Shown: piece by piece, positions 8,631 through 54,197 of the stretch | How positions within the stretch are numbered: the first letter of the stretch is position 1 | How the letters are laid out: every line of letters starts with the position of its first letter | NCBI GenBank assembly: GCA_001275005.1 | Contig: JWZX01003336.1 | Location: 1 to 58,286, forward strand | DNA length: 58,286 nt | Reading direction: 5' to 3' | From: Chrysochromulina tobinii | Taxonomy: Eukaryota | Notes under the pieces: generated by a model | Databases searched by the model: none | What the model saw: only the letters and a program-made list of their open reading frames with translations | Told to the model about the DNA's origin: nothing | Translations under genes and position numbers: made by a program

Positions 8631-10106
8631 ATGAAGCTGGTCATCCTTGTCGGGATCGCACTTGTATCTGCACAAGATGTATATAGATTGCACGACGCTG
8701 CGAGAGAAGGCGACGTTGATAAATTGAAGGCTCTGGTGGCGGCGGGTGCATCGCTTGAAGCGCAGGCTGATAACGAAGCCACGCCACTGCACTTGGCTGC
8801 GATGCACGGCCAGACAGAGTCGATCAAGGCGCTGGTGGAGGCGGGTGCGTTGGTTGATGCGCAGGCTCGTGACAAATACACGCCACTGCACTTGGCTGCG
8901 GAGCACGGCCATACAGAATCGGTCGAGGCGCTACTCGCGGTAGGTGCGTCAGTTCATGCGCGGGCAGACCGTGGAACCACGGCGCTGCACAAGGCAGCGA
9001 TGAACGGCCACTCTGAGTCCACCAAAGCGCTGTTGGCAGCAGGCGCATCAGTCAATGCGCAGGGCGACAACAGAGCCCTGCCGCTGCACTGGGCTGCATT
9101 TCAGGGCCATTCGCATACTATCCTTGTGTTGCTGGAGGCGGGCGCATCGGCCGAGGCGCAGGATGACCAGAAAATCACCCCGCTGCACTGGGCTGCGGGG
9201 GGAGACCATACAGAGTCGATCAAGGTGCTGTTGGCGGCGGGTGCGGCTGTGGATATGCAGGATAAGAACAATGCGACGCCGCTACACTGGGCTGCGAAGA
9301 AAGGCCATACCCAGTCGATCATAGTATTGGTGTCGGCGGGTGCATATGTGGATGCGCAGGGCGGCGGCGCTTCGCTCGAGGCGCACGGTGACAAGAAGGC
9401 GACGCCCCTTCACATGGCCGCAATGCACGGCCACTCGGAGTCGATCAAGGCGCTGGTGGCGGCGGGTGCAACGGTGGATGCGCGCGACGACGAGAACGCC
9501 ACGCCACTGCACTGGGCTGCTGGGACGGGTGATCTCAACACTGATTCTCTCTGAGTCCGTCTGACTGAATCCGTCTCATCGCAGGCCTTTGTTGGTGTCT
9601 GTTGGTGTGACTGATTGCCTCCCTCATCAAGTAGCAGGTACCAAGGAGCACCTGATGACCTCTGATGACCTATGATGACCTCTGATGACCTCTGACGGCC
9701 TTATTCCTCAGGTACCCCGGAGTGGTCCAGCAATGCGGAGTCGATCGAGGCGCTCGTGGTGGCGGGTGCGCCGCTCGAGGCGCACAACGACAAGAAAGCC
9801 ACCCCGTTGCACTTGGCGGCGATGCACGGCTATCCTGACTCAGTCAAGGCACTGGTGGCAGCGGGTGCGTCGCTGGGGTCGCAGGGTGACAAGAAAGCCA
9901 CCCCGTTGCACTTGGCGGCGATGCACGGCAGACTGGATTCGATCATTGTGCTCCTCGCGGCAGGTGCGTCGGTCGATGCGCTGGACGACGAAAATTCCAC
10001 GCCGCTTCACATGGCCACGGAGCAGGGCCGTTCGGAGTCGATCGAGGTGCTGGTGGCGGCGCGTGCGGCGCTTGAGACTCGAACCGACGAAAAAGACGAA
10101 GTGTGA
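8631..10106 (+). CDS. Secreted/ER ankyrin-repeat protein, 2 exons (approx. 8631-9528, 9712-10106)
   Basis: Signal peptide MKLVILVGIALVSA; >10 TPLH.AA..G ankyrin repeats. A GT(9529)...CCTCAG(9711) intron rejoins the two ORFs in frame. Confidence 0.85.
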
Positions 10107-10382
10107 TCGCAACTGCGTCGCGCCACGTCCGCGCCTCTGAAGCAACGTGAGCGAGGGGAGAGAGATGGAGGTTCACTCGACCGGTAGGAAACGAAAGTTT
10201 GCTTTGGGTGACCGGACCATACCCCCCCGGTACCTAGTACACGCACGCACCCTAGGGTCAGCATGCCTTCTCGAACATGATGGGCGCGTAGTATGAACTT
10301 ACAGGTGTTGAGACCAGACAGTATGGTACGCATGATGGTACGGTCTGCGGTGATACATGCACAGACTCTTTAGCCGCTCTCA

Positions 10383-11835
10383 CTAAGAGGGCGGCGACTG
10401 GCCGGGCGTGAGCAGCGTCAAGGCTGCTGGGAGCACAGTCGTCTTGAGGGGCGTAACTCCTATGATATCGCCGTCAACCATCAGCTCCAGTGGCGGCTGC
10501 CCAGCCGCCGTCGCGAGCTCGATTGAGGAGGTCGCGAACTTGTACGACACGAGCTTGTCGTGGATGTGCTTACCGCCGGCCTTGATCATGCCATCGAGCT
10601 TGAGCGCCTTGAGCACACCAATATGGCTGGGCGTGTACATGATGTCGATCTTGCCATCGTCGAGCTGCGCCCTCGGGCACACGCGGATCGAGGCGCCCGT
10701 GTGCTTGTTGTTCATCATGCAAATGACGAAACAGCCAAACTCGTGTTTCTCGCCGTCGATGGTGAACGTACACGGAGGGGACTTGCGACCAAATGCGAGC
10801 TTCACGATCTCGAGCGTCTGGGTGAACGAGTACCTGGTTCATCAGAGGCCATCAGAGGTCATCAGGTCCTCAGAGCAATCAGATGATGGGTGAACGAGTA
10901 CCTGGTTCATCAGAGGTCATCAGAGGTCATCAGGTCATCAGAGCAATCAGATGATGGGTGAACGAGTACCTGGCGGGGCCCATCCAGCGGCGCGTCTCGG
11001 CCTTGGCATTGATGACGACGCCAAAGCCCGCGGTCACAATGTTGATCGAGTACCGGGTGAGAGGCGTCGTGCCGTCCGGTCCGAAGCACTCCAGCCTGGA
11101 CAAGTCCACCTTGCGCGTGAGACCGCCCATGATGACGGCGACGGCCGCGCGCACGGCTGCCTCGCCGCGCTGCTTCTTGCCCATCACGTCGTGCATGAAC
11201 GTGTTGCCGGTGCCGCCGGGCAGGAAGCCGATGGCGCAAGATGGTTGCGGCTCGCGGCGCATGAAACCGTTGATTACCTCGGAGAGCGTGCCGTCGCCTC
11301 CAAGTGCGCAGAGAGCGTCCACTCCGGTCAAGTCCGCGGTTTCAGCGAGGCCCACGCCGTGGCCGGAGTGCTGTGTGGCCAGTGCAACCACCTCGACGCC
11401 GGCCTCCTTGAATGCAGGGTTCACCACGTTGTCCATGAGCTTCTGGCCGCGCTTGCCACCTGATACAGGGTTGTAAATGACAACGACCTTTTTAACCGAG
11501 ATGGCCTCGCTCGCCGCCGTAGTGAATGGCGCGAGTAGCGGCGGCTTGCCCTTTGTTGAAGCTGGTGGAGCTTCAGGAGGTCCCGGTGGTGGTGAAGCGG
11601 GCGTCACCGCCACCACCTCCGGGATCTCAACCGCCACCGCCGGGATCTCAACCGCCTCGGGTGTCACCGGCGCCGGAACCTCCTTCATCTCAGTTGAAGT
11701 GGGCATATCAACTACCGCCGCCGAACCCTCCTGAGCCTCGGTTGAAGCGGGTGGTGGTGGCGGATACTCCGGAGCCTCGGTTGAAGCGGGCGTGTCGACC
11801 ACTGCCACTGCGACTTCTCCAACCTCGGATGCCAT
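10383..11835 (-). CDS. Diacylglycerol/sphingosine kinase (YegS/DAGKc) family protein, 2 exons (11835-10970, 10833-10383)
   Basis: Motifs NPVSG, GGDGTLSEVING, LPGGTGN, AQLDDG and VDGD. Intron 10834-10969 restores ...GPARYSFTQTLEIVK... Confidence 0.9.
10834..10969 (-). mobile_element. Introner-like intron made of two 68-nt units, each starting with a copy of the downstream exon start
   Basis: CCAG|GTACTCGTTCACCCA occurs 3 times (donor, internal, acceptor), separated by (CTGATGACCT)-type repeats. Confidence 0.75.
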
Positions 11836-15100: not shown

Positions 15101-17268
15101 CCCTGCTGTCCCTATCCGATCGCGGCCCGATAGACCCGTTCGAGGACCTCTCAGAGCTCTCGAGGTTCAATCCATGGACCTTTTCGGAGCCCAGCCCGAG
15201 CTCGAGCACTTCCTCGTCCGCGCCCACGTACGTCGTAAACTCGGCCTGCAGCCGGTCCACGCGCTGCTCGCGCGTGCTTGCTTTCGGAAGTGGCATCTCC
15301 GAGAACATCTCCCCGAGCGCACAAGGAGATGGCACCTCCTTGCGCAGCAGAGCTTCCCAGTCGAGCGCGTTGAAGAATGGGTGCTCCTTCATGCGCGCCG
15401 GCCCACCTGATGAGGGGTGGTGCGATCAGCGGTCATCAGCGGCCATCAGCGGCCATCAGCGGTCATCAGAGGTCATCAGAGGTCATCACTGGCATGTGCG
15501 GGCCCACCTGATGAGGGGTGCAATCAGATGCCATGAGGGAGGCAATCAGTGGCAGTTACCCAAGTTGGCACTCCCAAGCCGCGCGCTTGGATCGACAGTC
15601 ATGAGCTTGTGCAGCAGGTCCTGGAGCGTGGCGGAGCAACACTCGTCGTCGAAGGTGATCTTGCACTTCTTGATCATGTTGATGAGGGAGCCCATGTCGA
15701 CGGAGCGAAAGGGGCGCTTTCCGTGCACCATCTCGTACAGGACGCACCTGATGAGGCAGGCCATCAGACGCAATCAGCACGCACCCAGTGGCAATCAGCA
15801 TACACTCAGACGCACTCAGCTCGCACCCAGACGCAATCAGCATGCCCACGCAATCAGCCACGCACCCAAAGGTCCACCAGTCGACCTCATAGCTGTACTC
15901 TCGGCCCATGAGGACCTCGGGCGCTATGTACTCGGGTGTGCCGCAGATCGTCGCCGTGCCCCGCTTCTTTTGCTTCTCGCCGTCGGCGTTCACATCGCCG
16001 AGCTGCTTCGAGAGCCCAAAATCGGTCAGCTTCAGGTGGCCGTCCACCCCGATCATCACGTTCTCGGGCTTGAGGTCGCGGAAGATGACGCCGTGCGCAT
16101 GCACATGCTCGAGCGCGAGCGCAATCTCAGCGGCGTAGACAACGACCCAGGCCTCACGCAGTCTCCCTTTGGCCTCAAGCAGGTTATGCAGGTCGCCGCC
16201 GCCCATAAAGTCCATGACCAGGAAGATATTCTCATCCGTCTGGAAGGCGAAGCGCAGAGAGATCACATACGGATGCGGCCTGGCTGCCATCTGCTGCATC
16301 ACCTGCTTCTCGGCGATGGCCTGCGTCACGCGCGTCGCGTCGCTGTAGAGCAGCTCCTTTCGGATCACCTTCATCGCGTACACCTTCTGCGTGTCGATCT
16401 TGGTCGCCATCATGACCTTCCCAAACGTGCCCTCGCCGCACAGGCCGTGCACCTGAAAGTGGTCGAGCCCCACCGTCGTGTCCAGAGGCGTCGTGGGCCT
16501 GGCACGACGCGTAGCCAGGTTCTCGGGCGGGCTCGAATGCGGCGAGAGAGCCTCCAGCTCCTCTCTCGACGTGCGCAGTTCTCTCGACCTTAGCTCCTTC
16601 GAGTGATTCCTGGACGGTGTCCTGGACGGTGTCCTGAACGGCAACTCGCTCGTGGCTTCTGGGGCTGAGTCGCTGTCGTGGCTGGTCGAGGCACCTGCAG
16701 CACCATCCACGTGGCTGCGCGGCTTGATCTTCCTCAAATGCAAATGCCCAGGGTAGGCCGCGAGTTTATTCCACGTCAGGCCGCGCGTCGCAACCTGAGC
16801 TTGCGCCTCGCCCAGCTGCTGGAAGAACTCGGACTTTACCAAGCCACGCTCCTCCTGGTAGTGCGATTCGGTGTACCAGAGAGCATCGGCGCCTGCCATC
16901 TCGCCTGTGTCGAGCGCAACGAGAGCCGACGGGATATAGCTCTCTTCCAGATCCAGGAAGCTAGAGTAGCCTTTTGATCCATGCGCTTCAAAGTCTCGCC
17001 ATCGTACACTCTTACCCTTGGGGCGCTCTTTGGGTTGGGGGGGCGGTTCGTTGAGCGCCATGGGCGGGTGCTCGCTGCCATCCCAGCCCGAGCGTACGCG
17101 CCGACGGCCGTTGAGCTGCATGACGTGTGTGTAATGACGATCACGCGGTGACGTCCACTCGCAAATGATGTCACGGAAGGATCGAAGCGAAGAGAAGGGA
17201 GTCTTCTGTGAATGCGCTGACGCTTTTTCGTGAAGGAGACGTAACGACGTTACTGAAAAAGCACACAT
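12131..17268 (-). CDS. Multi-exon AGC Ser/Thr kinase fused to PAS, SnoaL-like, PAS-like and C-terminal LOV domains (start codon and last junction uncertain)
   Basis: Kinase motifs GEGTFGKV, YAMK, FRDLKPEN, DFG, CGTPEYIAPE, HPFF..LDW. Introns 15748-15865 and 15407-15559 keep the frame. SnoaL-like AFPDLHF...GTHLG...GKIVDH. LOV signature GRNCRFLQ at 12851-12874. A frame change between ~13050 and ~13210 needs an intron or indel. Confidence 0.72.
12339..12408 (-). repeat. 12-nt coding tandem repeat (RPEI)n in the tail of the LOV-containing ORF
   Basis: (tcggggcgtatc) about 5.5 copies. Confidence 0.9.
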
Positions 17269-19697: not shown

Positions 19698-19834
19698 TCA
19701 TTCCGCATCCTCCTCATCCTCCTCATAGTCCTCATCCTCCTCGCTCTCGAAGTACGAGCCCAAATCGTCCGACTCGGACGCATCGTCCGAGCCCCAGTTG
19801 CACAGCTGCCACGCCTCGTCGTCGTACTCGCGCG

Positions 19835-19865
<31 letters not shown>

Positions 19866-22800
19866 CGCGTACGCGCCGTCGGCGGCGCCGATGGCACCGT
19901 CGGCGAGCTCAGTTTCGTCATCTTCAGAGGAATCCGACGACTCATCGAGCAGCGCCGCCTCGCGCCCGGCGCCATCAGCCGCCTCGCCGCTCGCACCCTC
20001 GACACCGCCCGCGCCGCCCGCGTCGCCCGCACCGCCCGCGCCGGACGTGCCGGACGCGCCCTTCCGCCGTCGCTGCCGGCAGATCTCATCGAGCTTGCGG
20101 AGTAGCTCGAGCGCCGAGCCTCCCTTGCGCCGGAGCAAGCTCATGGGTGAGTCCGTGCCACCTACCCCTACATAGAGCTCTGCGCCCGCCCGGACCAGTA
20201 AGCAGGCCACCTCCTCAAACTCGCGCCCGCACGCGAGGTGGAGCGCGGTCCGTTTCGTCGCCGAGAGAGCGTTCGGACGCGCACCTGTGGGGAGGAGGAG
20301 TCAGGGCGCCGTGGTGAGCGTATGCATGCATTCGAGAGAGCGTTCGGGCGCGCACCTGGCTCAAGGAGCCATCAGAGGCAATGAGGGTGGCAATCAGTGG
20401 CCCTCAGTGGCAATGAGGGTGGCACTCAGGGTGGCACTCAGTGGCAATGAGGGTGGCAATCAGGGGCACTCAGTGACAATCAGTGGCCATGCGAGCACAT
20501 GCGGCCACGCGCCTGCGCCGAGGTCATCAGTGATCATCAGAGGTCATCAGTGATCATCAATGGCCACGCGCCTGCGTCGAGGAGCCGTTGGCACACGGCC
20601 GCATGCCCGCCCGCGGCCGCCGCATGCAACGGCGTGCAGTCCGAGAGCATCCCCACACAAGAGACGAGCGCGCCTGCCTCGAGGAGTTTCGTCAAGAGCG
20701 GCTCCTCCCCGTGGTACGCAGCGCAATGGAGGAGCGTCTCGCCGTACGGCGGCGTCGACTCATCCGCATTGATCGAGCGGAACGTGAGCGGATCGCGCCG
20801 ACGCCAGCGCGCCGCCACCGCGAGGTCATGTGGCTCAAGCTCGGCGACGAGTTTCGTCAACCCCGACGCATCGCGCTCCATTAGGCAGCGCCAGAGCGTC
20901 TCGGCGCGCTGTGCCGAGCACCGCTTGAGCTCGCGCGCCGTCTCGAGCATCTCGCGCGTCGAGGCGAAGGGCGAGGCGCGGTGGCGTGCGCCGAGCGGCG
21001 GCTGTAAGCACTTGGGAGCGCTCGCGATTGCGTCCTCCATCAGAAGCTCGTGCAGCATCGCCGACTCGGCGCGCACCTGCTCGCGCTCAAAGAGGCGATC
21101 AGAGAGGCAATCGGAGAGGCAATCAGAGAGGCGATCAGTGAGGTGATCAATGGCCATCAAGTGGCACGCACCTGAACGCGGTCGAGCATCCGGTTGTGCA
21201 CGCTCACCGAGCGCAGGTAGTAGTCGAATTCGAGGGCGGGTACTGGCTGCGAGTGCGCGTAGAAGACAGCGAGGCGCCCCTTGAGCGCATGCTGCCCGTC
21301 CTTGCACACCTGATGAGGGGACCGCAATCAGACACGATCAGCCGCGAGCAGCCGCAATCAGCCGCAATCAGCCATCTGTTGATGGACGCAATCAGACACC
21401 ATCAGAGAATAGCGGCACACTTTCAGACGGCACCTGCCGTCCGTCCCCCGTACAAATTTGCCTCGTCGGTCTCGCAATCAGTCGCAATCAGTGGCCATCC
21501 ATCACCATCCATCACCATCAGGGGCACCTTTGCCTCCTTGATCTCGGCCACTTCCACACCGTCGATGTAGGTTCGCATCACGCCGGCGATCGCATCGACG
21601 ACGCACGAGATCGCATGCCAGCTCGTGGGCTCGCACCTGATTAGGGAGGCACTCGCACGCAATCAAGACCCCATCGAGATCGCACGAGATCTCATGAGAT
21701 CGTACGAGATCGTACGAGATCGTACGAGATAGCAGATCGTGTGCTCGCACCGTGGCGATGTCGCGTCTCCGAAGATGCCATGAGCTCCGACGCCCCCCTC
21801 GTCGTCCACGAAGAGCTGCGCGTCGTCATCGCCCTCCTGCGTCCAGTGGGCCCCGATCAGAGGTCATCAGAAGCTATCAGAGGACGTCAGAGGTCATCAG
21901 AGGTCATCAGAGGCCATCAGAGGCCATCAGAGGCCATCAGAGGCCATCAGAGGGCGTCAGAGGTCGTCAGAGGTCGTCAGAGGTCATCAGACGCCAACAA
22001 AGGCCATAAAAGGCCATCAGAGGCCATCAGAGACACTCAGAGGTCATCAGAGGCACTCGGAGGCAATCAGTAGCACTCACCTGCATCGCATTCCATTGAT
22101 CCCAGCCTGCCGTGCACAGGAGGCCACGCATCCGAACCGCCGAGAGCTTGCAAAAGAGGGTGGCCGTGTACTGGTTCAGGTGCAGGCCGCCCCCATTCTT
22201 GCGAAAGGGCACACGCAGCACCACGAAGGTGGAGCCGTAGCCCTTGTAACATGGGACCCGGGCCGAGCCCTGACGCACATACAGCCACTTGCCGCGCCCT
22301 TCCATCCACATCGGCGCGCCTTCCTGGGTACCTGATGAGGGAGGCCGTCAGGGGCAATCAGAGGCCATCTGCCACTCCTGGGTGCCTGATGAGGGAGGCA
22401 CTCGAGCCGCAATTCGGGGCATTCATGATGGTCTACATAGCTCCCGTGCCGTGAACGCGCCCTCCCCACAGCGTACCCAGCTCGCCGCGTGTGAAGTCGT
22501 AGAAGCAGCTCGTGCGCGTCGTGCGCGGGTTGAGGCCTTTGTGCAGTTTCGTCAATCGCATCCACCCAAAGTCGGACTCGAGCATGTGCGCCTCGAGGTG
22601 CTTGCGTGCCTGCTTGGCGAGCGTTGCAATCAGTCGCAATCAGTCGCAATCGGTCGCAATCAGTCGCAATCAGTCGCAATTAGTCGCAGTCAGTCGCAAT
22701 CAGGGGCACTCGCCTGCTCGGCGAGCTCCGCCTCCGTCCGCACGAGCGCCGTCTCGAGCGCTCGTTCCGCTTCGAGCTGCGACGAGAGCAGTGATTGCAG

Positions 22801-37800: not shown

Positions 37801-40800
37801 GCCGCACCGATCCCTTCACCTCCCGCGCTTGGAAGGTCAGCTTGAGCCGCGGGAGAGAGACCAGGCACAGGTCGGACTGCGCGACCGATCCCGGCTTCGT
37901 TAAGTCGGTGGCGTCATCCCAGCGGGCCCACGCAAGCACCTGCGAGAGCGTCTCGAGGCGCGCCATCACGTCATCAAAGGTCATCAGAGGTCATCAGAGG
38001 CCATCAGCGTACCTGCGAGAGCGTCTCAATGCGCGCCATCACCGTCGCGAGAGAGTACAGGTACGAGTCAGCGGGCGCATGCAGCAGGTCGAGCAGCACG
38101 AGCTCCTCATCCTCGAGATCGGAAGCGGACATGGCGCGAGATCGCTCGAGATCGGGGGCGGCGGGGGCGACGCCTGACGAAACTGATGAAACTGACGGGC
38201 CTGACGAAACTGATGAAACTGACGGGCCTGACGAAACTGATGAAACCGACGGCGCGGCCGATGAAGGGGTGGCGACTGTCGCGTCCGAGGCGGGAGATGC
38301 GGGAGATGCCGCAGCCGCGGCCACCAAGCCGGCAGCTGCAGCCCGCTCCTCGTCTGCCTTTGCCATCAGCGCTGCCAGCGAGTCGAGGAGCATCGGCAGC
38401 ACCACGGCTGAGATGCGATGACGACGGCGGCGCCGCCGAAAGCCGTTCAAGTCGAGCAGCTCTAGCAGTGCTCGGAACGGCGCGAGCTCGGCGGCATTTG
38501 CGGCGATGACGGCGCTCGTCGTCGTCGACGACGACGATGAGGAGGTCGCTTGCCTGGGAGTGGCCTGATGACGAGCGCTCGTATCGCCGGCGGCGCCGCC
38601 GAGCGCCGAGCCCGATGGCGCCGTACTGGGCGTCCTGCCGGGCACCGCACCGGGGCCGTTCCCTTGAGTTGCATTCGCGGCCGCCTTGCGGAACGCGGGG
38701 TGCCCTTGGCGAGAGAGCAGCTGGCCGAGTGCCCGGCAGACCTGATGCGTGGGCTCAAACGGCCCGACGATGAGCTCCTCGTCGCGCACGAAGCGCTCGA
38801 GGGTCTTGAGAGCGCCCAGGACGACGTCCCGCTGCCTCGTGAGGCGTGCCGCCTTGAGTCGCAGGATGCATGCGCGCGCCGGAGGGAGCGCGTGGTCCCC
38901 AGGGCGCACCTGATGAGGGAGTCAATCGGGGGCAATATTTAGGGGCCATACGGGGCAAGTAGGGACACTTGGCACTCGGACGCAATCACAGGTTCGGCAT
39001 GGTCTCCGGACGCACGCGATCGAAGCGAGCGCCGTGGAAGGCGACGTGAGCGCCCGCGAAGAGCTGGATGAGGAGGATGCTCGAGCAGCTCGACACGTCC
39101 CGTGGGTAGCCGCGCACCTGTGGGGAGAGAGGGGCGGTCTCGCGCCGTGGTGAGCACTTGCATGCGGCGGGGGCCATCCCGCGGGGAGAGCCGCGCACAT
39201 GATCGTCCTCATCCTGCCAGAAGGCATGCGTGTCGAGGAGTGCCTGCGGTACGAGCCCGTAGAGGAGGCGCGAGGGGAGGTACGTCTCCCGCCCGAGCGA
39301 CAGATTGGCCTCGACCATCCAGTCTCGCGTAATCACGGCGGATTTCGTCTGGTTGTGCGAGTCGCCATAGGGATGGCCCGCGCCGTGCCGCTCCCACTCC
39401 GGCCACATGCCTTCGCGGTGCGCCGTGGACGGCTGCATGTCGCGACAGGCAGTAGCGCGCGTCGCTGCAGTACTCGAGAGAGCGGTAGAAGCGTCGGCCG
39501 TGCGTACTCAATGCGGTACTACGTGCTACCATACGCCGTGCGCGGTACACGAACAGCTCGCGCCACACGCCTGCCTGATCCGGTTGCTTGCCCACGAGGT
39601 ACGCGACCTGCGCGTCCTCATGTAACGGCTCCTCAGGGGCCATCAGGGCCATCAGGGCCATCAGGGGGGGCATCAAGCGCACTCACCTGCGCGTCCTCGG
39701 CTAACGGTTCTTCGGGCAGGTAGACCTCGAGCGGGCGCGGGAAGAGCAGGTACGTGCGCCGTACCGGCTCGAAGACGGACGGGAGCCATATCTTTTCGGA
39801 TGGGAAGAGCTCGTCGGGGTAGTACGCACGGTGGTGGTCGAGCAGCGGCAGCTTCGGATCCTTATTAGGCCAGTGCTCAATGTCGTGTGAGCGGCCGACG
39901 AGACGGTAGCACGAGCGCCAGGTACTCTGCTCCGTCAGGCACGCTTGCATGCTCACCTCTCCGAAGATGTCCACCACGTCCTTCAGCCGAGCGACATCTG
40001 TCGGTAGAGCCTGTGGGTGCGACGCACGCAGCGTGAGCTGCATCAGCTGAGCATCGACCTCGACGGCGAGCTCGGAATCTGCCATCAGAATGATCCTCTC
40101 GGGCTCCTCGGCCGGTGTCGCCGCGCTCATCGCCGGCACGATGCTCGGCACGACGCTCGACCTGCTCACTATCGGCGGCACCGGCGCGTGCTCCGCGGCG
40201 GCACTCGGCTGGCGGCTCAGAGCGGGCGCGCTCGCATCGCTTGCCTGTCGACTGAGCCCGGGCGCCGGAGTGGGCACAGCGGCCGCCGCCGCCGCCACCG
40301 CCGCCGCCGACGACAGCTGCTGCTGCGTCTTCGAACGCGACGAGTGCAGCGCAAAGCGCCCGTGATTCTGCTCGCCAGCCACGTAGGCCCACCGGTGGGG
40401 CACCTCGTCACTCGTCGGCTTGAGAGCGCCCGTCGAAGCGGACACACGAACGACCGAGTCCATGACCAGATCGAGCTGTCGCTGGTCGGCGCGCTCGCGG
40501 AGCCACGTCACCACCTTGCGCCGCAGCACGTGCACCGCCTCGTACACCTCCGTCTCGGGGATGCGCCACCCGCCGTATGACGAAACTCCGTCCTTGCGGT
40601 CGAGCAGCGCCATGTTCCACTCGTGACGGGTCGAGAGGAAGACGACTGCCGTCACCACCGTCGTGACGCGGCCCTCGGTGAGCGCCGTCGTGGGCACGTT
40701 GCGCAGCGTGAGCAGCAGGTGTGCATGGAGGCTGCACATGTGCTTCGTGTTCGTGTCGAGCACCTGCTCGTCGTCGGACGAATCGCTCGCAAGGTCGCGT

Positions 40801-43800
40801 CAATTGCAATCAGTAGCGATCCACAGCAATCAATAGCCATCCACAGCAATCAATAGCAGTTCGTCAGACAGCAGATGGAGTAAAGGACAGCAAGCAACAG
40901 CGCACCTGGTCGTCTTCGGACGAGTCGCACTCCTTCACGAGCTTATGGTACCACGCCTGGATGAGTCTCGTCATCTCTCCCCACAGGACATGGCGCAAGT
41001 GCTCCTGAGCGACGCGAAGCCGCGCCGCAACGCCCGGCGCGCAGCGCAGCCCCCGGAAAGGCTTGCCACAGATGCAGTCGTGCGTGCCCTCCTCGTACGC
41101 GAGCACAAAGGAGATGTAGTTCTCGAGGCGGCAGCACAGGCGCGCCACGTACAGGATGACGGTCGAGGTGGACGACTTGAGCGTGCCAGTGTCAAGGTCG
41201 CACGCCTGGAGCGAGGCCATTTGGGCCCATTCAGAGGCACTCAGCGGCCGTCCATCGCAATCAGTGGCCATTTGGGCCCATCGCAATCATCGTAATCAGA
41301 GGCCATTTGGGCCCATCGCAATCAACGCAATCAGTGGCCATTTGGGCCCATCGCAATCAACGCAATCAGTGGCCATTTGGGCCCATCGCAATCAACGTGT
41401 CTGACGGTGTCATATCTTCATATCTAATAGTGTCTGACGGTGGAGATCGCACCTGGCGTAGCAGCCGAAGCACCGAGTTGAGCAGCGTATCAGGCGATCG
41501 ACACAGCTCATTGAGGAGCAGATGATGCGCTGTGCCGAGCAGCTCGGGCGCCGAGGTGGGCACATCCACCGGCTCCATGGCCGCCGACGCGTGGGGCAGG
41601 TGCGCTCCGGGCTCGAAGAGGACAGCGTCGAAGAGCGCCTGGAGCTGTGGGGACTGGAGCGAATGGCACCGGTCGTCGGAGGCGAAGAAGGACGCGACGA
41701 GCGGGATGCGCAGGTAAGGGACCGTCAGGTAACTGAGCAGCAGCTCGGAGTCCTGCTGGCCAAGCGCGCGCGCGTGGGCCACGTCCAGCTCGCCAAAGTC
41801 GGGCAGCTCCCACCTGATGAGGGAGGCGACCAGAGGTCATCAGTCGCAATCATTGGCAATCAGAGGTCATCAGAGGCCACCCGAAGCAATCAGATGCCAT
41901 CAGTTGCCATCAGCGCTCATCAGCGCTCATTAGCGCTCATCAGCGCTCATCAGCGCCCTTGAGAAGAGCGAGAGGCAGGCAGCTCCACGCATGTGAAGCA
42001 CTCAGAGGTCATCAGAGGTCATCAGAGGTCATCAGAGGTCATCAGAGGGCAGCTCCCCACATGTGAAGCACGTCATCCTCGCTCTCAATGAAGTACGGGC
42101 GGGTGTACTCCGAGGGATGTGCCAGCGACGCAAACCGATGAACCGGGGGCATCTCGCCGCGCTTGACACGCGGGCGGCACGAAAGGGTCGAGTCCTGGAA
42201 CCCGGTCACGTAGAAGCGCTCCGATCCGTCATCATAGTGGAAGATGAGCTCGGCGTCTTTCTGGGTCCAAGGGTGCTTTGCGGGGAAGCGCCGGATGTCG
42301 GGGTTGAGGAAGAGCTTAAAATAGTACGCGATGTCGCGGTAGCCTGCAGCAGTTGATGAGCAGTTGATGAGCAGTTGATGAGCGAGAGGCAGTCAGACGC
42401 CATCAGACACAATCAGGCGCCATCAGGGGCGATTACATCGGAACTCGGGGTAGTTCTTGATCACGAGCTCGCGCGAGTCGGAGATGTAGCGCGGCGTGTT
42501 GTACCCGTCCGACGGGAAGGCGAGATCGGCGCAGATGAGCCCGAGCCACTTGGTCGTGCCCGACTCGAGCCGCTCGGTCTTCTCCCAATTATAGATGCGC
42601 GTGAGCGATGACTGGCAGTTGAAGTAGTCGAGCACGCATGCGCGCGCCGTATTGAGCTCGGGCGTGTGTACCGGTACGACGGCCGCCTGGAGAGCCAGCG
42701 CCGCCGCACCGAGCGTAAAGCCCTTGACGGGCCTCTCCTTGGTGCCCGTTACGGCGCCTGGCCTCGACGCGTCGGTGGCAGCGGCCGCGGTGGCAGTGGC
42801 CGCGGTGGGCGTCGCGCAGCTGCCGCCTGGCTCCTTCGCGCTGGTGGTGCTGGCGGTCGTGGGTGCGGCGGCTGTGGACGCGTTCGAGGCCATCGCCGCC
42901 GCGATAACGGCCGCGCGACTCGCCGCACGACTCGCCTTACTGCCTTTCGCATCTCTGCCGCCACCGCCGCTGCTGCCACCGCCGCTGCCGCCGCCGCCGC
43001 TGCCGCTGCCGCTGCCGCTGCCGCTGCCGCTGCCGCTGCTGCCGCCGCTGCTGCCGCCGCCGCTGCTGCTGCTTCGGCCGCTGAGGTGGATGCAAACCTC
43101 GGATGGCAGATCCACCGCAATCTGGCGCATGATGCAATCCGCGACCGCCGCGATGCATGCCGGCACGACCATCCGAACTGCATCGAGAGAGCGCGTGTGG
43201 TCGACGCCAAAGACAGATGCGGCGAAGTGCTCGACGAGCCGCTGCAGCAAGAGCATGGCGTCTAACTGCTGCGCGTAGAGCATCGGCGAGCGCCATACGC
43301 ACTCCTTCGCCGTCGGGTCGCCCTCGGGCCGCGGCAAAGGCAAGAGCACCGTCATCGTGTGCTGGATCATCGCGATCTTGAGGAAGTTCGTGTTCTTGAC
43401 GCAGTGCACCTGCACCGCGATCAGGGTGCACAGACGGTCGCAATGGCGCAGTGCGTTGACGGCCTCGTCAAGTGTGCGTACGATCGCGGGCTGCTGGAGC
43501 ATGTCGATTGGCGTGTACCGGGGCAGCCCGTGGGCGGTGCCCGCATCGACCGGCTCGCGGCGTAACAGGCGCTCGAGCAGAGGGTGGTGGTGCGCCGTCT
43601 CGGGCGGCTTGACGGACGACCACGGGAAGGAGCGCGCGTGCTTGCGCATCAGGCGCACGCCGTCCGTTGAGATGACGGAGCCATCTGAGGCGAGGAGCAC
43701 CTGTGGGGAAGCGAGGGCGCCATGGTGAGCACTCGCATGCAGGGCATGATGCAGGGCATGTCCAAGGCATGTTTCGAGGCACATGGGAGGGCGCCATGGT

Positions 43801-46800
43801 GAGCACTCGCATGCAGGGCATGATGCAGGGCATGTCCAAGGCATGTTTCGAGGCACATGGGAGGGCGCCATGGTGAGCACTCGCATGCAGGGCATGATGC
43901 AGGGCATGTCCAAGGCATGTTTCGAGGCACATGGGAGTACCAGGCACGGCATCGCGCCGACGTGGAAGACCTCGGCGAGCAGCGCAGGGTACGCTCCGCC
44001 GTGCGGCAGCGCAGGCCACGGCATCGCACGCCGGTAGACGTCAAAGTCGCTCTCGGACGCATCCTGCGAGACGAGGAGAATCTGAAGCCCCTTGCCGCGG
44101 TGACGAAGCGCATTGTAAGTGGAGGCGAGGAGCGGCGTCGTCGAGCGGCATGATGGACACCACGAAGCGGCAAAGTAAAGCCCGATCACCTGATGAGGGA
44201 GGCAATCAGAGGTCGTCAGAGGCCGTCCGAGGCAATCAGAGGTCTTCAGAGGTCATCAGCGGCCAAAGGAAAGAGCCCGATCACCTTCATCCCCTCGAGC
44301 GGTCATGAGAGGTCATCAGCGGTCATCAGAGGTCATCAGCGGTCATCAGAGGTCATCAGCGGTCATCACCTCCATCCCCTCGAGCGCCTCTTCGATCGAG
44401 ATCGAGGCGAGCTCACCACCGGCCGCGCCGTCCGCGCTCGACTGCGAGAGGGCGGCGATGCGCCGCTGGCGCTCCTGTGCCGTGATCTGGCCGCTCGCCT
44501 CGAGAGAGTATGCCTCGCGCACCGCAGCGGCAGCGCTGCCCACCGGCTGAGCCGAGGTTGACGAAACTGACGAGCCTGCCGAAACTGACGAGGCTCGCGC
44601 GCCGGCGGCCGCCGACGCGCCGCTGCCACCGGCCGGTGCGTGTGGGCTCCCTGGAGGCGCAACGTCCGCGCCGCCGCTCTCGCCGCCCGTGGTTGCACTG
44701 CTTGGTAGCAGCGGCCGCCCAGCTGCGCCCAGGAGTGCGGCTAGCGACGGGCGGCCGAGATGTGCATCGCTCTCGCAGAGGATGAGTGGAGGGGGGGCGG
44801 TCGATGAGGGCGCGGCGCCTGGCTTGGAGAGGAGAGTCGTTTGAAGCTTTTGAATGCGCTCGCGAGTGGCAGCGAGCTCTGCCACGCTGAGCGGCAGCCC
44901 CGCAGCGGCGGCGGCGGCGGCAGCAGCAGCAGCACCAGCAGCAGTAGCACCGGCAGCGGCAGGGGCGGCTCGCTCCTCGCCACCCTCGCATCCCAGCTTG
45001 GCCGCCTTGTACGCGAGCTGCCGGCACGCAATGTTCAAGATCGAGCGCTCCGCCGGCGAGACGTGTGGCACAAAGCCCAAGTCATGCTGTGCCATCTGGA
45101 GCAGCTCGGCACGCAGCAGGAGAGAGAGGCGTTTCCACTCAGGGACGCTCACGCCAAAGCCGCGTAGCAGGAAGCGCAGCGTGTGGCGCACGCAGCCGTA
45201 GTGAGCCGAGCCCGAGCGGCGCGCTGTGCGCATCTCGGGCGGCTCGTCGGCACGTGCGTTCGATCGCAAGAGGGCTTGCTCAAGAGAGTCCTGCGCCACA
45301 GACGAGAGAGCCATCAGAGGCGAGGCCGAGGCGATCAGAGGCCATGAGAGGCGATCAAGGCTCATGAGAGGCGATGAGAGGCGATCAGAGGCCATGAGAG
45401 GAGATCAAGGCTCAGGAGGGGCCATCAGGCGAGATCTCACCTCCGCCACAAACGAGAGGAGCAACTGATAGAGCACCTGGTGCGCCGAGAGCTTGCCGCC
45501 GTTGTCCACGCTGGCGGCGTACCAGAGGACGGCCCAGAAGGCTTCGTCACGGAGCCGCGCGAGGCGCACGTCGCGCAGCGTCAGGCAGGTGGCGAAGCGG
45601 ATCTTGGGCGGCGTGGCCGCGGCCTCGTGGTGCGCGAGAGCCTCTGGATCACAGGAGACCACGGTGAGCTGGCACAGCGCCTCGTGGGGGGTGCGCTGCC
45701 GCTCGACGAGCAGGATCAGAGGCCCACCTGATGAGGGAGGCAATCAGAGGTCATCAGAGGCCGTCCGAGGCAATCAGAGGTCATCAGAGGCGTCATCAGC
45801 GGCGTCATCAGCGGCAGCCCACTGGCATGCGATGAGGGGAAGCATCAGCGAGGCCATCCGAGTCATCACATGCACTCGCAGGCAATCGCAGGCGCTCAGC
45901 GGCCCACCGCCGACGGCACAGGGCAGCACGAGCATGCCGCCAGGCTCGAGGGATTCGAGAGCCTTGAGGGCCTTGGATAAGTACATGCGCTGCTGCCCCT
46001 GGTGGCCCATTGCATGCGCCAGCTTATGCGCGAGCTTCTTTGCGTCTTCGAGCAGCGTACACGTCGTGTTGAGTGCGGCGCGCTGCGCGTGCGGCAGCGA
46101 ACAGGCGGCGCCGTGCGGCTCGGCGAGCAGCCGCTGCAGCGTCAGCACGACCACCTCGAGCGAGATGTGCAGCGAGCCACCGTCGAGGCCCGTCCCAGCG
46201 ATGAACGCGTCGCCCACTTCGGCCGCGAAGGCGGGGTGCAGCCAGACGGGCGGCGGCTTGGCATAGAGCGGCTGGAGAGAGAGCTGCTGCGAGCGCGCCG
46301 CCTCGGCCTCGTCAAGGAGCTCGGCCTCCTCATCCTTTCCTCGCAGGCTGTGAAGCTCCTCGCGTACCTGTGGGGGGAGGGCGCCGTGGTGAGCACTTGC
46401 ATGCATGCAGGGCCTGATGCTTTCCTCGCAGGCGGTGAAGCTCCTCGCATACTTGCTCTTCAGTCCAGACGCTTGAGACGAGCTTCACGTACCTGTGGGG
46501 GGAGGGCGCCGTGGTGAGCACTTGCATGCAGGGCCTCCTGCAGTCCAGACGCTCGAGACGAGCTTGACGTACCGCACCGCCAGGCCGCGCTCGCTGCCGC
46601 CGTCTTCTCCGCCGCTCAGCAGCGCCGCGCTCATCAGCGAGGCGCCGTGCTGGGCGAGACCCGCCGAGACGCCGGCCGCCGCGCCGCCCGCCGTCGCCGC
46701 CGAGGAGGCGAAGGCGCTCGACACGGCGCTCGAAGATGCCCCGCCGGAGGACGCGGCGCCCAGCACGGCGCCTCCCCGCGCGGCGAAGAGCGCCACGTGC

Positions 46801-48104
46801 TGCGGATCGAGGCAGAAACGCTCCGGAGGGGGGGCGCCGTGTTGGGCGCCGTCTTTGCCGCCCTTGCCGCCGCCGCCGCCCTTGCCCTCCTTATCCACCT
46901 CCTTCTCCACCCCCTCCTCGGCCGCGCGCGCCGTGCCGGCGGGCTTGAGCTTGGACTTGTCGAGCAGCTTGGCCGACTCGAGTTTGATCTCCGCGCACAG
47001 CCGGCCGTTGACGTACGTCTTGAGCTCGCCTTTCTTGCGGGTGACTGCCACCCAGGCCCAACGCTCGGCACGGACCGTCGCGTCCTGGCTGCACGCACGA
47101 AACGCGAGCGAGCACTCAGGGCGCACTCAGGATGCACTCAGGGCGCAATCAGGACGCAATCAGGACGCACTCATGACGCACTCATGACGCAATCAGGGCG
47201 CAATCAGGGCGCAATCAGGACGCAATCATGACGCAATCATGATGCACTCATGACGCAATCAGGGCGCACTCATGACGCAATCAGGGTCATCAGCGTACCT
47301 GCCCATCTGGCCCAGCGCGCCGACGCCGCCATTCTTGTACACCTGCACCTGGTCGAGCTGCTCGCCCTGGGTCGGCGGGCCGCCGCCGTGGAAGAGCGGC
47401 AGCGTCGCCGTGGGCAGCCGGTCAAGCCGCAGCGCGAGCAGCAGCGAGTACCGATGCAGCTTGCCATCGTCTTCGAGCGTCCACGCGTTGACGTAGGGCA
47501 TGCTGAGCTTGAGGTAGCCGCCCTCGGGCATCACGAGCGCGGCGCTGCCGTCCTCCTGCTCCTCGAAGCTCGCGTCGCCGCCGATGACCTCGAGCCCCTC
47601 GGGCAGCTGGCTCTGGCTCTGGCGCAGGTCAGCAGTCACGAGGGTCAGGGTCTGGCCGCTGCCACTGCCGCCCCACTCCATATCCCTGCCGCTGCCGCCG
47701 CTTCCACGCCCGTTGCGGCCGGTCGGCTCGCCGGCGCGGCCCTTGCCGTTGCCGCAGCTGCGCTGCTGCTCTGCCTCTCGCACGTGGTCTTCGCTCGTGC
47801 CGCCGGCTCCGTTGCGGCCCGGTGAGGTGGCGGCCGCGCGCATCAGCGCCGTCGTGGTCGTGTCATCGTCGTCGTCGTCAAAGCCGAAGCCATCGGTCCA
47901 GATGGAGAGGCCACCGATCCCGCCGAGTCCGCCGAGCCGGCCCTGCCGGCGCGACATCTTAGAGTCCGCCGCGTTGTCGAAGGCCGAGCGCTCCTCCCGG
48001 TTGGTCGGTTCGAAGGGCTTCTCGTCCTTCTGCCTGCCGCGAGGCGTGTCCTCCAGCTCGTCCTCGTCGTCGTCGAAGTCGCCTCCGTGTTTGCGTCCCG
48101 GCAT
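19698..48104 (-). CDS. Giant multi-exon protein (roughly 7,000 aa, estimated): LamG-like, nucleoredoxin-type thioredoxin, U-box/RING-like, DUF3638/DUF3645 P-loop region, inactive Trx-like, dynein-stalk-like helices, EF-hands, LamG-like, ankyrins, acidic tail
   Basis: ATG at 48104 and TGA at 19698. The many junctions checked by eye join in frame. Motifs: YFAASWCPSC (~44150), CPISL...CPFTRQ (~34500-34650), QMLMGGGKTT, IMDEVD, LAIPFVGKDVPSRASEFAHPDI, GFSGT, FYDQIHTTGMD, QGAFRMRG, EQEQEQEIE, DYDRNGLLSLAE, GETLLHCAA. Not every junction was verified, so this could be more than one gene. Confidence 0.7.
20285..20571 (-). mobile_element. Three stacked introner-like units (20513-20571, 20356-20512, 20285-20355)
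   Basis: Internal CAG|GY junctions. The last unit carries the family-B cassette and an ~22-nt copy of the downstream exon start. Removing all three gives LLDAG|ARPNALS. Confidence 0.7.
26380..26592 (-). repeat. Coding GAG/GAC triplet tract (poly-E/D)
   Basis: (tcc/tcg)n on the + strand inside a giant-gene exon. Confidence 0.9.
27345..27446 (-). mobile_element. Family-A introner-like intron with exact 20-nt exon duplication
   Basis: Both the intron and the next exon begin GTACGGCGCGAGCAGGCCGT; the intron ends CCTCCCTCATCAG. Confidence 0.8.
31267..33455 (-). CDS. Largest exon of the giant gene: DUF3638 (Walker A/B) + DUF3645
   Basis: DPRFLLFEFTHNLVLR.AQ, MGGGKT, DEVD, A.PF.GKD.PS..SEF.HPD..I.LT.LAY. 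Bounded by AG at 33456 and GT at 31266. Confidence 0.85.
37940..38012 (-). mobile_element. Mirror-type intron whose 3' end duplicates 30 nt of the upstream exon
   Basis: GTGATGGCGCGC(ATT/CTC)GAGACGCTCTCGCAG ends both exon and intron; body of CTGATGACCT repeats. Confidence 0.78.
43701..43940 (-). repeat. Intron containing 3 x 74-nt tandem repeat of a family-B cassette variant
   Basis: Units start at 43713, 43787 and 43861; the intron interrupts the thioredoxin domain (MPCL|VLLASDG). Confidence 0.85.
46368..46572 (-). mobile_element. Two family-B introns (46493-46572, 46368-46452) flanking a 40-nt exon
   Basis: Each intron is an ~32-nt copy of the downstream exon start followed by an identical TGCATGCAAGTGCTCACCACGGCGCCCTCCCCCCACAG. 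Confidence 0.82.
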
Positions 48105-52547: not shown

Positions 52548-52682
52548 GGTGTAAAGTAGAGTTGCCGTTGCCACGTGTTTCGTCGCGGGGCGCCATGCCG
52601 GGCATGAACGTGCCGTGAAAAAGGGCTATTACCGTTACGCGGAGAGAAGCCCCTCAACCGTGTATGCGCACCTGCACGCAGT

Positions 52683-54197
52683 TCAGCTGAACCCGGCGGT
52701 CACACCAAGCTGCAACCCGTTTCCAACGCTGGCGTCGCTCGGCGCCTTGCGCAGCACGTGCACCATGTTGAGCTCGAGCCGACCGAGCGGGGTGGGCAGC
52801 GCAACGCCTGCGCCCACGCTGGCCCGCAGGGACGGCACCACGCTACCCGCCGCGCGCACGGCGGCGAGCCCCTGCAGCCCGCCCACGGACGCGAATATGT
52901 GCGCATGGCCATCGGACTTGGCTAAGTTTCCTGGAAGGGTTGTCGAGAGAGAGGCAGTGGCGACGCCGAGGAGGTCTCCTCCGAGCGCGTCGTGCGACGA
53001 GATGCTCGGCGGCTTCTTGGGCGCCGCGGCCGTGGGCTCAGCCGCCGACGCCGCCGGCGATGCGAGGCTATGACGTTCATCACGTGGCCCAACGCCGCGC
53101 GTGCGGAATCCCCACAGAGAGCCAGGCCCGCCGCAGAAGAAGCGGTCACAGATGTGGCTCTCGGTCGGCCCGCCGAGCAGCCCGCCGAAGAGCCCGCCCA
53201 GCGGCAGCAGCACGCCCGCGTGCACCTGCACGCTGGCAGTGAGCCGACCATTCGCCATCAGCGGTGTGAACGCTGCGGCGGTGAACGTGCTCTTGACGAA
53301 GCGCGCGTCGCCGAGCGGGAACGGCGCGAGGCCTGCGAGCTCCGTGTGCAGGCGCAGCAGCGCGCCGCTCGTGGGCACCAGTGGATGGTCCACCTGATGA
53401 GGGAAGCAATCAAGGGCGTCATCAGAGGTCATCAGAGGTCATCAGAGGTCATCAGAGGTCGTGGGCACCAGTGGATGGTCCACCGTCGAGCGTGCGTAGC
53501 TATGAGAGAGGCTACTCTTCAGGCTCTGCCCACGTTGCTGCAGGATTGCCCACGAGGCGGTGTGGGGTGTGAGCCGGCAGACGTCGCGCAGCTCGAGCGC
53601 GTACGTGAGCTCGTGCCGACCGCCGGCCGCGCCGGCCGATCCCACGCGCACGCTCGCGCTCGCGCCGAGCAGCTTCTGCACGAAGGACGAGTGTTTGATG
53701 TGCGAGATCGCCTGCTTGCTCACATCGGCGCTGAGCTGCGCGTCCTGGCCCATCCAACGCGGGCGCACGGCGCTCAGCTTGAAGGAAGAGCTCTTTTGCT
53801 GGCCCATCTCCATTTGCGCCTCGAAGATCTCCGCGCGTCCGAGCTGGTTGCGCACCGCCACCTTGGCCTCCATTGTGTTCTCCGACGACTGCGTCGCTAC
53901 CATCGTGCTCGCACTGGTCAGCCGCTTCTTCTCGGTGACAGTACACACGATGTCGACGAGCGCCGCGCCGTGGGGAGTCGCGCCCTGCGCCGTGTCCATA
54001 AGCAGGTCCGCCGAGTCGAAGATGCCGAGCGACTGCAGCGCACCCGCCACGGCGAGGCAGCCCTGGTGGAGCTCACCGAGCGTGCGTGCCTTGTTGAGGC
54101 TGGCAAGCTCCTGCCGAACGACGCTCTCGTGCGTCTTCTGCAGCCCGCGCACGCGCATGCGGCGCACAGCGACCGGATGCTCGAGTTGGGTACCCAT
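52683..54197 (-). CDS. SAM50: Mitochondrial SAM50 (Omp85/BamA family), 2 exons
   Basis: Single POTRA (V.G...T...V...EL), barrel motifs NQLGRAE, DRFFCGGPGSL.GF...GVGP, DALGG, TPLGRLELN. Intron 53394-53483. Confidence 0.88.
53394..53483 (-). mobile_element. Family-A introner-like intron in SAM50 with exact 25-nt exon duplication
   Basis: 53369-53393 is identical to 53459-53483; body (CTGATGACCT)n; end GATTGCTTCCCTCATCAG. Confidence 0.85.

What the first reader, a model, noticed from the sequence alone, without database searches (positions are those of the whole stretch)
9529..53483. Candidate intron-generating system: exon duplication + repeat body + stereotyped 3' splice-site cassette
Seen: five unrelated genes (ankyrin, DAG kinase, AGC-LOV, giant gene, SAM50) contain short introns, always in the gene's sense orientation, many ending in a shared cassette YTGATTGCCTCCCTCATCAG. 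Acceptors on the - strand include 15407, 15748, 21310, 22332, 23035, 23890, 27345, 27819, 29633, 29908, 36603, 37188, 37641, 38910, 41814, 44190, 45728 and 53394. Many BEGIN with a copy of the first 5-33 nt of the downstream exon: 25 nt exact in SAM50, 20 nt exact at 27345, 17 nt at 29908, 9 nt at 27819. The donor GT is thus an exonic GT recycled by duplication, and splicing restores the protein exactly. Known: introners create introns in other algae, typically as DNA-transposon derivatives with TIRs and short fixed TSDs. Inference: long variable duplications, no TIRs and a repeat body point to a different mechanism, such as staggered-break repair or TPRT-like templated addition of a splice cassette.
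Basis: partly seen in the sequence, partly recalled or inferred. Interest (0 to 1): 0.92.

Follow-up and report, generated by a model that had tools for sequence, protein, structure and literature searches.

The report
Introns born from duplicated exon edges
In a freshwater haptophyte alga, many introns begin or end with a copy of up to 40 bases of the neighbouring exon around a filler shared with other introns, a footprint that likely records new introns being made by copying pieces of old ones into duplicated sites rather than by a standard transposon.

Summary
Real. The window is Chrysochromulina tobinii. I curated 54 introns. In 14 the start copies the next exon; in 7 the end copies the previous exon. 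Shuffled pairings average about 0.05 of each. RNA contigs remove four introns exactly, copy included. Homologous proteins run uninterrupted across 26 of the first 26 giant-gene positions, so these positions are likely lineage-specific gains. Best reading: duplication-plus-templated-insertion (staggered-break repair or template switching) copies ends of existing introns, and selection keeps those that splice exactly. No enzyme, template RNA or DNA-level empty allele was found; SAM50 polymorphism rests on protein calls. It works like TSD-recycling introners and Daphnia break-repair gains, but lacks a fixed TSD length and inverted ends. A published introner screen lists zero families for this genome. 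The scan noted the same footprint earlier on another piece of this genome (e1-2577349).

The parts
19698..48104 (-). Giant DUF3638/DUF3645 + thioredoxin-like + ankyrin gene, about 21.4 kb of exons, 49 curated introns (G1-G49, numbered from the 5' end)
   Evidence: frame check, homologue ranking; Pfam
53394..53483 (-). SAM50/Omp85 intron: 25-nt exact copy of the next exon start, 10-nt repeats, cassette A acceptor
   Evidence: uninterrupted conspecific proteins; same sequence in L001/L002
15748..15865 (-). AGC-kinase intron 1: 6-nt start copy, cassette A
   Evidence: boundaries by frame only
15407..15559 (-). AGC-kinase intron 2: two cassettes, inner one followed by a decayed copy of the next exon start
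   Evidence: boundaries by frame only
10834..10969 (-). DAG-kinase intron: 19-nt duplication (4 nt before, 15 nt after the junction) gives both AG and GT; whole 68-nt unit doubled; no cassette
   Evidence: relatives uninterrupted, conspecific calls read into it
9529..9711 (+). Ankyrin-gene intron: internal degenerate cassette A, 10-nt repeats; boundaries least certain
46493..46572 (-). G2: 35-nt start copy (3 mismatches), cassette B
46368..46452 (-). G3: 40-nt start copy (4 mismatches), cassette B; closest relative of G2
45728..45907 (-). G4: 12-nt start copy, cassette A; last 45 nt near-identical to G6
45291..45440 (-). G5: mirror type, 18-nt copy of the previous exon end
44190..44369 (-). 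G6: 5-nt start copy, internal 44-nt junction-spanning copy, cassette A
43701..43940 (-). G7: cassette B in a 76-nt unit, three copies here and two in L001/L002
41814..42060 (-). G9: start copy, internal junction-spanning copy, cassette A
40764..40905 (-). G11: mirror type, 23-nt end copy plus 4-nt start copy
39608..39686 (-). G12: mirror type, end copy 12 nt exact (about 30 nt decayed); spliced in RNA contigs
39118..39198 (-). G13: 10-nt exact start copy, cassette B
38910..39015 (-). G14: short start copy, then a stretch matching G16 including part of G16's exon copy, cassette A
37940..38012 (-). G15: mirror type, 30-nt end copy (2 mismatches)
37641..37807 (-). G16: 14-nt start copy, internal 55-nt junction-spanning copy, cassette A
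37188..37272 (-). G18: 4-nt start copy, cassette A; exact RNA joint in three runs
36811..37096 (-). G19: 8-nt start copy, several nested copies, cassette C
36603..36690 (-). G20: 4-nt start copy, exact cassette A
35980..36070 (-). G22: 24-nt end copy plus 6-nt start copy; a truncated cassette A sits just before the end copy and is not the acceptor
35195..35315 (-). G24: 5-nt start copy, cassette B
31043..31266 (-). G26: 6-nt start copy, tandem 74-nt units holding a junction-spanning copy
29908..29988 (-). G29: 17-nt start copy, cassette A; removal matches RNA contig length exactly
29633..29763 (-). G30: decayed 40-nt copy of the next exon with 12-nt repeats, cassette A; removal matches RNA contig length exactly
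28300..28462 (-). G31: GC donor inside a 21-nt start copy; no homologue cover
27819..27976 (-). G32: 9-nt exact start copy, cassette A; closest relative of G33
27345..27446 (-). G33: 20-nt exact start copy, cassette A; RNA contig leaves the genome at the end of the copy
23890..24036 (-). G39: inner cassette followed by a copy of the next exon start, then cassette A
23258..23356 (-). G41: 8-nt exact start copy, cassette B; closest relative of G49
23035..23131 (-). G42: internal 20-nt copy of the next exon, cassette A
22332..22476 (-). G44: 4-nt start copy, two cassettes A; no homologue cover
21637..21750 (-). G46: 18-nt start copy; its 10-nt repeat unit resembles the next exon's own sequence
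21310..21527 (-). G47: 3-nt start copy, degenerate cassette A
20285..20571 (-). G49: GC donor, nested copies, cassette B
21077..47298 (-). Remaining giant-gene introns: 47089-47298, 42344-42436, 41206-41452, 37436-37525, 36215-36434, 35625-35748, 33456-33602, 30739-30843, 30547-30654, 27040-27170 (acceptor uncertain), 25861-26043, 25626-25695, 24863-25041, 24224-24384, 23522-23604, 22610-22713, 21837-22080, 21077-21171

Best explanation
These spliced introns carry copies of their own exon edges and were likely gained when a break-repair or template-switch event duplicated up to about 40 bases of exon and inserted, between the two copies, a filler likely copied from the end of an existing intron. 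If the duplicate starts with GT (or GC) and the filler brings a branch-point-like motif, pyrimidines and AG (cassette A, B or C), the first copy serves as donor and splicing restores the protein exactly. In the mirror case the duplicate ends in AG and the donor comes from the filler or the duplicate. Insertions that cannot be spliced out cleanly would be purged, which would explain the sense orientation and the splice-site rule. Later 10-11-nt tandem duplications and further duplication-plus-filler events at the same site would lengthen and scramble the intron. Shown: anatomy, enrichment, splicing of four introns, shared ends between introns. Inferred: gain rather than loss, the templating, the repair pathway, and the role of selection.
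For: Edge copies: 14 of 54 at the start, 7 of 54 at the end; null mean 0.05 and 0.06, maximum 2 in 5000 permutations. Own-flank matches scoring >=12 in 21 of 54 introns against 11 of 2862 foreign pairs. All 54 have AG at the previous exon end or GT/GC at the next exon start; exonic background is GT 4.3%, AG 6.3%. Cassette introns: next exon starts with the donor dinucleotide in 28 of 31, previous exon ends AG in 11 of 31; cassette-less introns 12 of 23 and 18 of 23 (Fisher p 0.004 and 0.002). So 20 of 31 cassette introns had no exonic AG at that point to recycle. Recycled GTs are donor-like: GTR in 35 of 39 against 53% (p 1e-6). RNA contigs remove G12, G18, G29 and G30 exactly. G1-G26 are each spanned without a gap by homologues; P0331, one 4111-aa JGI/ENA reading frame, spans 23 of them. 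Duplication lengths vary continuously and no consistent inverted ends exist. Eleven of 54 introns hold further internal copies of their own flanks. The best-matching intron lies within two positions for 12 of 49, about 4 expected.
Against: No empty allele was seen as DNA: both metagenome loci for SAM50 carry the intron and match the window. Whether the uninterrupted homologues come from DNA or from transcripts is not recorded; only contig lengths of 23-39 kb suggest DNA. Absence in relatives at 35-65% identity could be loss. Local templating is weak overall: lag-1 p 0.04 by rare words and 0.11 by alignment, nothing at lags 2-5. Sibling introns share next-exon starts barely or not at all (p 0.04 to 0.5 over six tests). 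The G14/G16 flank match scores 13, which 11 of 2862 unrelated pairs approach. About half of the cassette introns have a copy of 6 nt or less, which alone would not mark a duplication. Boundaries were picked by eye with the copies in view; 14 of 49 did not rank first against homologues (12 have little or no cover; G37 and G38 have cover and ranked 2nd and 4th). No repair enzyme was identified.
Confidence: 0.5

Rival explanations
1. A non-LTR reverse transcriptase inserts copies of a short RNA, possibly the spliced-out intron itself, by target-primed reverse transcription: fixed 3' end at the AG, variable 5' truncation, variable-length target duplication.
For: Cassette introns have a fixed 3' end, variable 5' start and variable duplications, the pattern recalled for LINE/SINE insertions. 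Non-LTR introners make up about 5% of classified families (PMC12130899, section read). In G22 a truncated cassette abuts the second copy without being the acceptor.
Against: The mirror class (7 end copies, none with a cassette) and the nested junction-spanning copies are not explained by a fixed 3' end. No poly(A) or simple tail is seen. No RT gene was noticed in the window, which was not scanned gene by gene, and there is no Rfam match.
Confidence: 0.25
2. Decayed MITE-type introners with a short fixed duplication made the introns; the long copies and the repeats are later local duplications.
For: The repeat unit CTGATGA is the reverse complement of the cassette end TCATCAG; 4 of 21 cassette-A fillers match it at 7 of 9 positions near their start, G16 from the first base. 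Polarella classes 4/5 and 6/8/10 recycle the donor from a 4- or 8-nt duplication and carry the acceptor (bioRxiv 10.1101/2020.10.14.339549).
Against: The most intact cases have exact copies of 25, 20, 15, 10 and 9 nt, not one length. 17 of 21 fillers lack the inverted match. Four of five start-copy introns folded no better than shuffles by z-score (z -1.5 to +0.1 across all five). Filler lengths run 59-239 nt.
Confidence: 0.1
3. Plain tandem duplication across an exonic AG|GT made the introns; shared cassettes and repeats spread later by gene conversion between introns and by a genome-wide 10-11-nt duplication bias.
For: It fits the cassette-less class (previous exon ends AG in 18 of 23; DAG kinase, G11, G12, G15, G22). 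Period-10 arrays have many unrelated units and period-11 arrays also occur outside introns. Tandem genomic duplication is an accepted route (PMC3443670 passages).
Against: In 20 of 31 cassette introns the previous exon does not end in AG, so duplication alone gives no acceptor at that point. The SAM50 intron has a perfect 25-nt copy and a complete cassette together.
Confidence: 0.12
4. The positions are old, relatives lost their introns, and the copies are secondary scars; or the copies are assembly artefacts.
For: Copies have decayed by about 10% (42 of 433 positions). The DAG-kinase intron is shared by alleles down to 89% identity. The window has single-base assembly errors.
Against: Several separate homologue clusters are uninterrupted at all 26 tested positions. 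Seven of 8 introns checked are letter-identical in a second assembly; G7 differs only in unit count. A secondary scar does not put the copy exactly at the donor.
Confidence: 0.03

Closest known systems
Introner-like elements of Symbiodinium and Polarella glacialis, classes 4/5, 6/8/10 and 14 (bioRxiv 10.1101/2020.10.14.339549; parts 1-2 of 4 read)
   Same: Donor recycled from the 5' end of a target duplication, acceptor carried; class 14 recycles both sites; downstream exon starts mirror the donor.
   Different: Those have fixed 3-8-nt duplications per class and, in Symbiodinium, inverted ends. Here duplications vary up to 40 nt, ends are not inverted, and bodies differ in length and are built of 10-nt repeats.
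Intron gain by staggered double-strand-break repair in Daphnia pulex (PMC4202315; abstract, passages and section 19 read)
   Same: Direct repeats at the intron ends; repeated staggered events inside young introns.
   Different: Repeats there are 4-17 nt, and parallel gains at one site are described as unrelated sequences. Here fillers fall into a few shared families with ready-made splice ends.
Tandem genomic duplication of AGGT-bearing exon segments (PMC3443670; passages read)
   Same: An exon duplicate supplies splice sites and leaves the protein unchanged; fits the cassette-less class.
   Different: Needs both sites in the duplicate and no foreign filler; 20 of 31 cassette introns lack the exonic AG.
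Introners of a marine Chrysochromulina sp. MAG (10.1101/2022.06.06.494994; figure legend passage read)
   Same: Same genus, no inverted ends, one splice site co-opted.
   Different: 4-bp duplication; carries the 5' site and co-opts the 3' site, the reverse of the cassette class here.
10-11-bp tandem repeats in Emiliania huxleyi introns (recalled from the 2013 genome paper; not held)
   Same: Period-10/11 repeat load in haptophyte introns.
   Different: I recall no link there to exon-edge duplication or intron birth; not checked.

Membership tests
Spliceosomal intron | GT/GC..AG ends, removed from the RNA, frame restored | tested here: met
   All 54 have such ends; four are removed exactly in RNA contigs; 35 of 49 boundaries rank first against homologues.
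Introner (TE-derived intron family) | Inter-intron similarity reaching both splice boundaries | tested here: not met
   Similarity covers 3' ends and repeat bodies; starts are locus-specific copies. A published screen lists 0 families for this assembly.
Introner (TE-derived intron family) | Target-site duplication that supplies a splice site | tested here: met
Introner (TE-derived intron family) | Recent gain with an empty site in relatives | tested here: inconclusive
   Protein-level only; no empty DNA allele fetched.
MITE / TIR DNA transposon | Terminal inverted repeats | tested here: not met
   4 of 21 cassette-A fillers reach 7 of 9 matches, only through the repeat unit.
MITE / TIR DNA transposon | Fixed duplication length | tested here: not met
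   1-40 nt, continuous.
Non-LTR retrotransposon / SINE insertion | Variable duplication, fixed 3' end, 5' truncation | tested here: met
   Holds for the cassette class, not for the mirror class.
Non-LTR retrotransposon / SINE insertion | Partner RT element sharing the 3' end; tail or small-RNA head | not testable with these tools
   No genome held; no Rfam match in the window.
Staggered-break repair intron gain (Daphnia type) | Direct repeats at the ends plus secondary internal repeats | tested here: met
Staggered-break repair intron gain (Daphnia type) | Presence/absence polymorphism in populations | tested here: inconclusive
   SAM50 read-into-intron calls on 13 and 1 contigs against uninterrupted calls at 99-100% identity; DNA or RNA origin of the latter unknown.
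Tandem genomic duplication | Both AG and GT inside the duplicated segment, no foreign sequence | tested here: not met
   Previous exon lacks AG in 20 of 31 cassette introns; filler present in all.

The most novel reading that the evidence does not exclude
Chrysochromulina has a self-feeding intron factory with no transposon: each intron's splice end is the template for the next, pasted into a freshly duplicated exon site, often nearby in the same gene. Every product again ends in cassette-AG followed by GT, so the cycle renews itself. It is still running (the SAM50 intron segregates) and is invisible to introner screens.
Probability: 0.4. Interest if true: 0.85.

Novelty: new variant of a known kind. 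Interest (0 to 1): 0.68.

Why it matters
Where new spliceosomal introns come from is a long-open question, and mass gain is now credited mostly to transposons. Here one gene holds 49 introns, many with readable birth scars of variable length and no transposon ends, in a genome that a large introner screen scored as zero; the 2022 version of that pipeline filters out repeat-rich families. If the reading holds, break repair or template switching can drive mass gain, and such screens undercount it. The species is cultured and common in lakes, so filled and empty alleles can be compared directly. It also matters for annotation: the public SAM50 model keeps five residues of the copy.

Tried and rejected
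No whole genome was held, so no genome-wide count or RT search; the records behind L001/L002 could not be extended. RNA support is missing for 40500-54300, including SAM50. The metagenome scan gave 2 loci from 119 candidate stretches, both with the intron. Viral collection: cassette A 0 hits, long repeat 0 hits, cassette B 1 hit; two shorter patterns gave 47 and 17 single hits, none repeat-rich. Prokaryote genomes: 5 single hits; the two I viewed were ordinary bacterial context. Rfam: nothing. An automatic exon parse kept the copies as exon and was replaced by hand curation. Shared structure of the introns: 5 of 6 folded no better than shuffles; G12 alone had z -4.2. Antisense insertion into an exon at 32318-32404: rejected as unproven, since the two closest homologues have a segment of similar length there. 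Priming on a sibling intron's next exon: weak or absent. Copy taken from a divergent allele: mismatches fall 13/11/18 over codon positions, which fits plain decay. Homologue spans at G29-G31 and G47 were dropped as wrong-frame or paralogous-domain hits.


Full report
Source. A SAM50 protein of Chrysochromulina tobinii CCMP291 (KOO21762.1) lies on a 58,286-nt contig, the window's length. Pfam confirms ankyrin, DAG-kinase, protein-kinase, DUF3638/DUF3645 and Omp85 genes; the LOV label rests on a motif I recall.

Observation. All 18 listed acceptors exist; the 19-nt cassette is within two mismatches in 15 of 18. I curated 49 introns in the giant gene by hand and 5 in the other four genes. For each giant-gene intron I scored alternative frame-compatible boundary pairs against 164 homologues. 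My pair ranked first in 35 of 49, with weak cover for G29, G30 and G46. Twelve others had little or no cover, and G37 and G38 ranked 2nd and 4th. Contigs from three RNA runs join across 37188-37272 exactly, two listed contigs join across 39608-39686, and two match to the base the length predicted by removing 29633-29763 and 29908-29988. Seven more introns show an RNA piece stopping at one edge. That joint table was cut to 15 rows and crowded by repeats, so most junctions are untested. A second assembly repeats 7 of 8 introns letter for letter.

Anatomy. Fourteen of 54 introns start with a copy of the next exon and 7 of 54 end with a copy of the previous exon (score >=8). Permuted pairings give means of 0.05 and 0.06. 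In the 37 introns with homologue support the counts are 11 and 5. The two types split by cassette. The 31 introns ending in cassette A (CCTCATCAG), B (CTCACCACGGCG ... CAG) or C (AATTTGGCAG-like) give 13 start copies and no end copies; the 23 without give 1 and 7. All 54 have AG before or GT/GC after. The recycled GT is followed by a purine in 35 of 39 cases against 53% in exons. Start copies in cassette introns run 1-40 nt, median 6. The 22 longer edge copies differ at 42 of 433 positions, from 0 of 25 in SAM50 to 6 of 30 in G12, so ages differ. Eleven introns hold further internal copies of their own flanks, several spanning the junction, as repeated events at one site would leave. Intron sequence is periodic at 10, 20, 30 and 40 nt (0.146 at lag 10, at most 0.012 at lags 1-9). 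Units differ widely, and period-11 arrays occur outside introns too. Stops fall in all three frames in 40 of 54 introns.

Gain or old positions. G1-G26 are each spanned without a gap by homologues; P0331, a single 4111-aa frame from JGI/ENA on a 23.6-kb contig, spans 23. SAM50 relatives at about 60% identity on contigs of 42 and 81 kb, and a DAG-kinase relative at about 70% whose calls break at other places, run through the sites. For SAM50, ten listed near-identical proteins from JGI, ENA or Logan contigs of 2-8 kb are uninterrupted, while the read-into-intron frames are on 13 and 1 contigs. For DAG kinase none of the 30 listed near-identical members is long enough to be whole, and those I read end inside the intron. 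The contrast suggests the SAM50 intron segregates. Only 15 of 71 members were listed per call and DNA or RNA origin is not recorded. The one metagenome scan returned two loci, both with the intron.

Templates. Ends are shared across genes. The best-matching intron lies within two positions for 12 of 49 against about 4 expected, with mutual pairs G2/G3, G4/G6, G14/G16, G32/G33 and G37/G38. The lag tests are weak (p 0.04 and 0.11), and siblings do not clearly share next-exon starts. Density is uneven: 49 introns in 21.4 kb of exon against none in the 5.5-kb CFAP65 frame; the genome paper gives about one intron per gene (PMC4580454 passages). In a DNA run, summed depth over repeat-rich bins reaches 25,000-38,000 against about 75 for unique contigs, so the filler is common genome-wide; this is not a copy number.

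Mechanism. I favour duplication with templated filler, by staggered-break repair or template switching, followed by selection for exact splicing (0.5). It covers both mirror classes, variable lengths and nested events. Reverse transcription of a short or intron RNA (0.25) fits only the cassette class. A decayed MITE (0.1) fails on length and ends, though the repeat unit is the reverse complement of the cassette end. Plain AG|GT duplication (0.12) fails for 20 of 31 cassette introns. The pathway and the templating are inferred, not shown.

Known systems. It works like Polarella and Symbiodinium introners that recycle the donor from a 4- or 8-nt duplication (bioRxiv 10.1101/2020.10.14.339549, first two of four parts read, supplements closed) and like Daphnia staggered-break gains (PMC4202315, abstract, passages and one section). 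It fails membership as an introner family or MITE. A 2025 screen lists C. tobinii GCA_001275005.1 with 0 families (PMC12130899, supplement row; two of 14 files not searched; one section read). The 2022 paper filters low-complexity families and describes a different 4-bp type in a marine Chrysochromulina (passages; its supplement was cut when stored). PMC3443670 and PMC11282704 were read as passages. Ten searches showed no description of these introns; subscription papers, including the Emiliania genome paper I recall for 10-11-bp intron repeats, are not held. I did not check its counts; it led me to the Polarella paper.

Verdict. A real and unusual intron-birth footprint, a new variant of known duplication-based gain, with the mechanism open between DNA repair and reverse transcription. 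Interest 0.68.

Noticed in passing
window 32318-32404 and 22810-22869 (+): Intron-type repeat words lie antisense and in frame inside giant-gene exons; for the first, homologues have a segment of similar length, so insertion is unproven.
   Followed up: partly
window 48348-48416 (+): Intron-type repeat words just upstream of a TPR-like gene, in its sense; possibly a 5' UTR intron.
   Followed up: no
window 34267-34330 (-): A cassette-B-like stretch inside a giant-gene exon that RNA contigs run through unspliced.
   Followed up: no
window 39445-39527, about 33790, 28270, 24150: Apparent single-base assembly errors that shift the giant gene's frame; the first four positions are corrected in all four laid runs.
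   Followed up: partly
window 2652-8163 (+): CFAP65-like gene, 1836 codons with no intron, on the same contig as a gene with 49.
   Followed up: partly
L008 4230-4554: The end of a phage-like contig from an environmental sample carries a roughly 38-nt duplication around a 10-nt repeat, then cassette B: the same footprint on other DNA, probably a chimeric contig.
   Followed up: partly
giant gene G31, G37, G38, G43, G49: Five GC-AG introns among 49; four begin GCGAG.
   Followed up: partly
window 17402-19017 (-): Intronless gene with about three ubiquitin-like repeats followed by another domain (read by eye).
   Followed up: no
window 38170-38260 and 44560-44590 (-): Exonic tandem repeats whose reverse complement resembles the intron repeat units.
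   Followed up: no
window 50359-50395 and 55502-55539: Intergenic 5-nt arrays (TTGAC) just past the 3' ends of two + strand genes.
   Followed up: no
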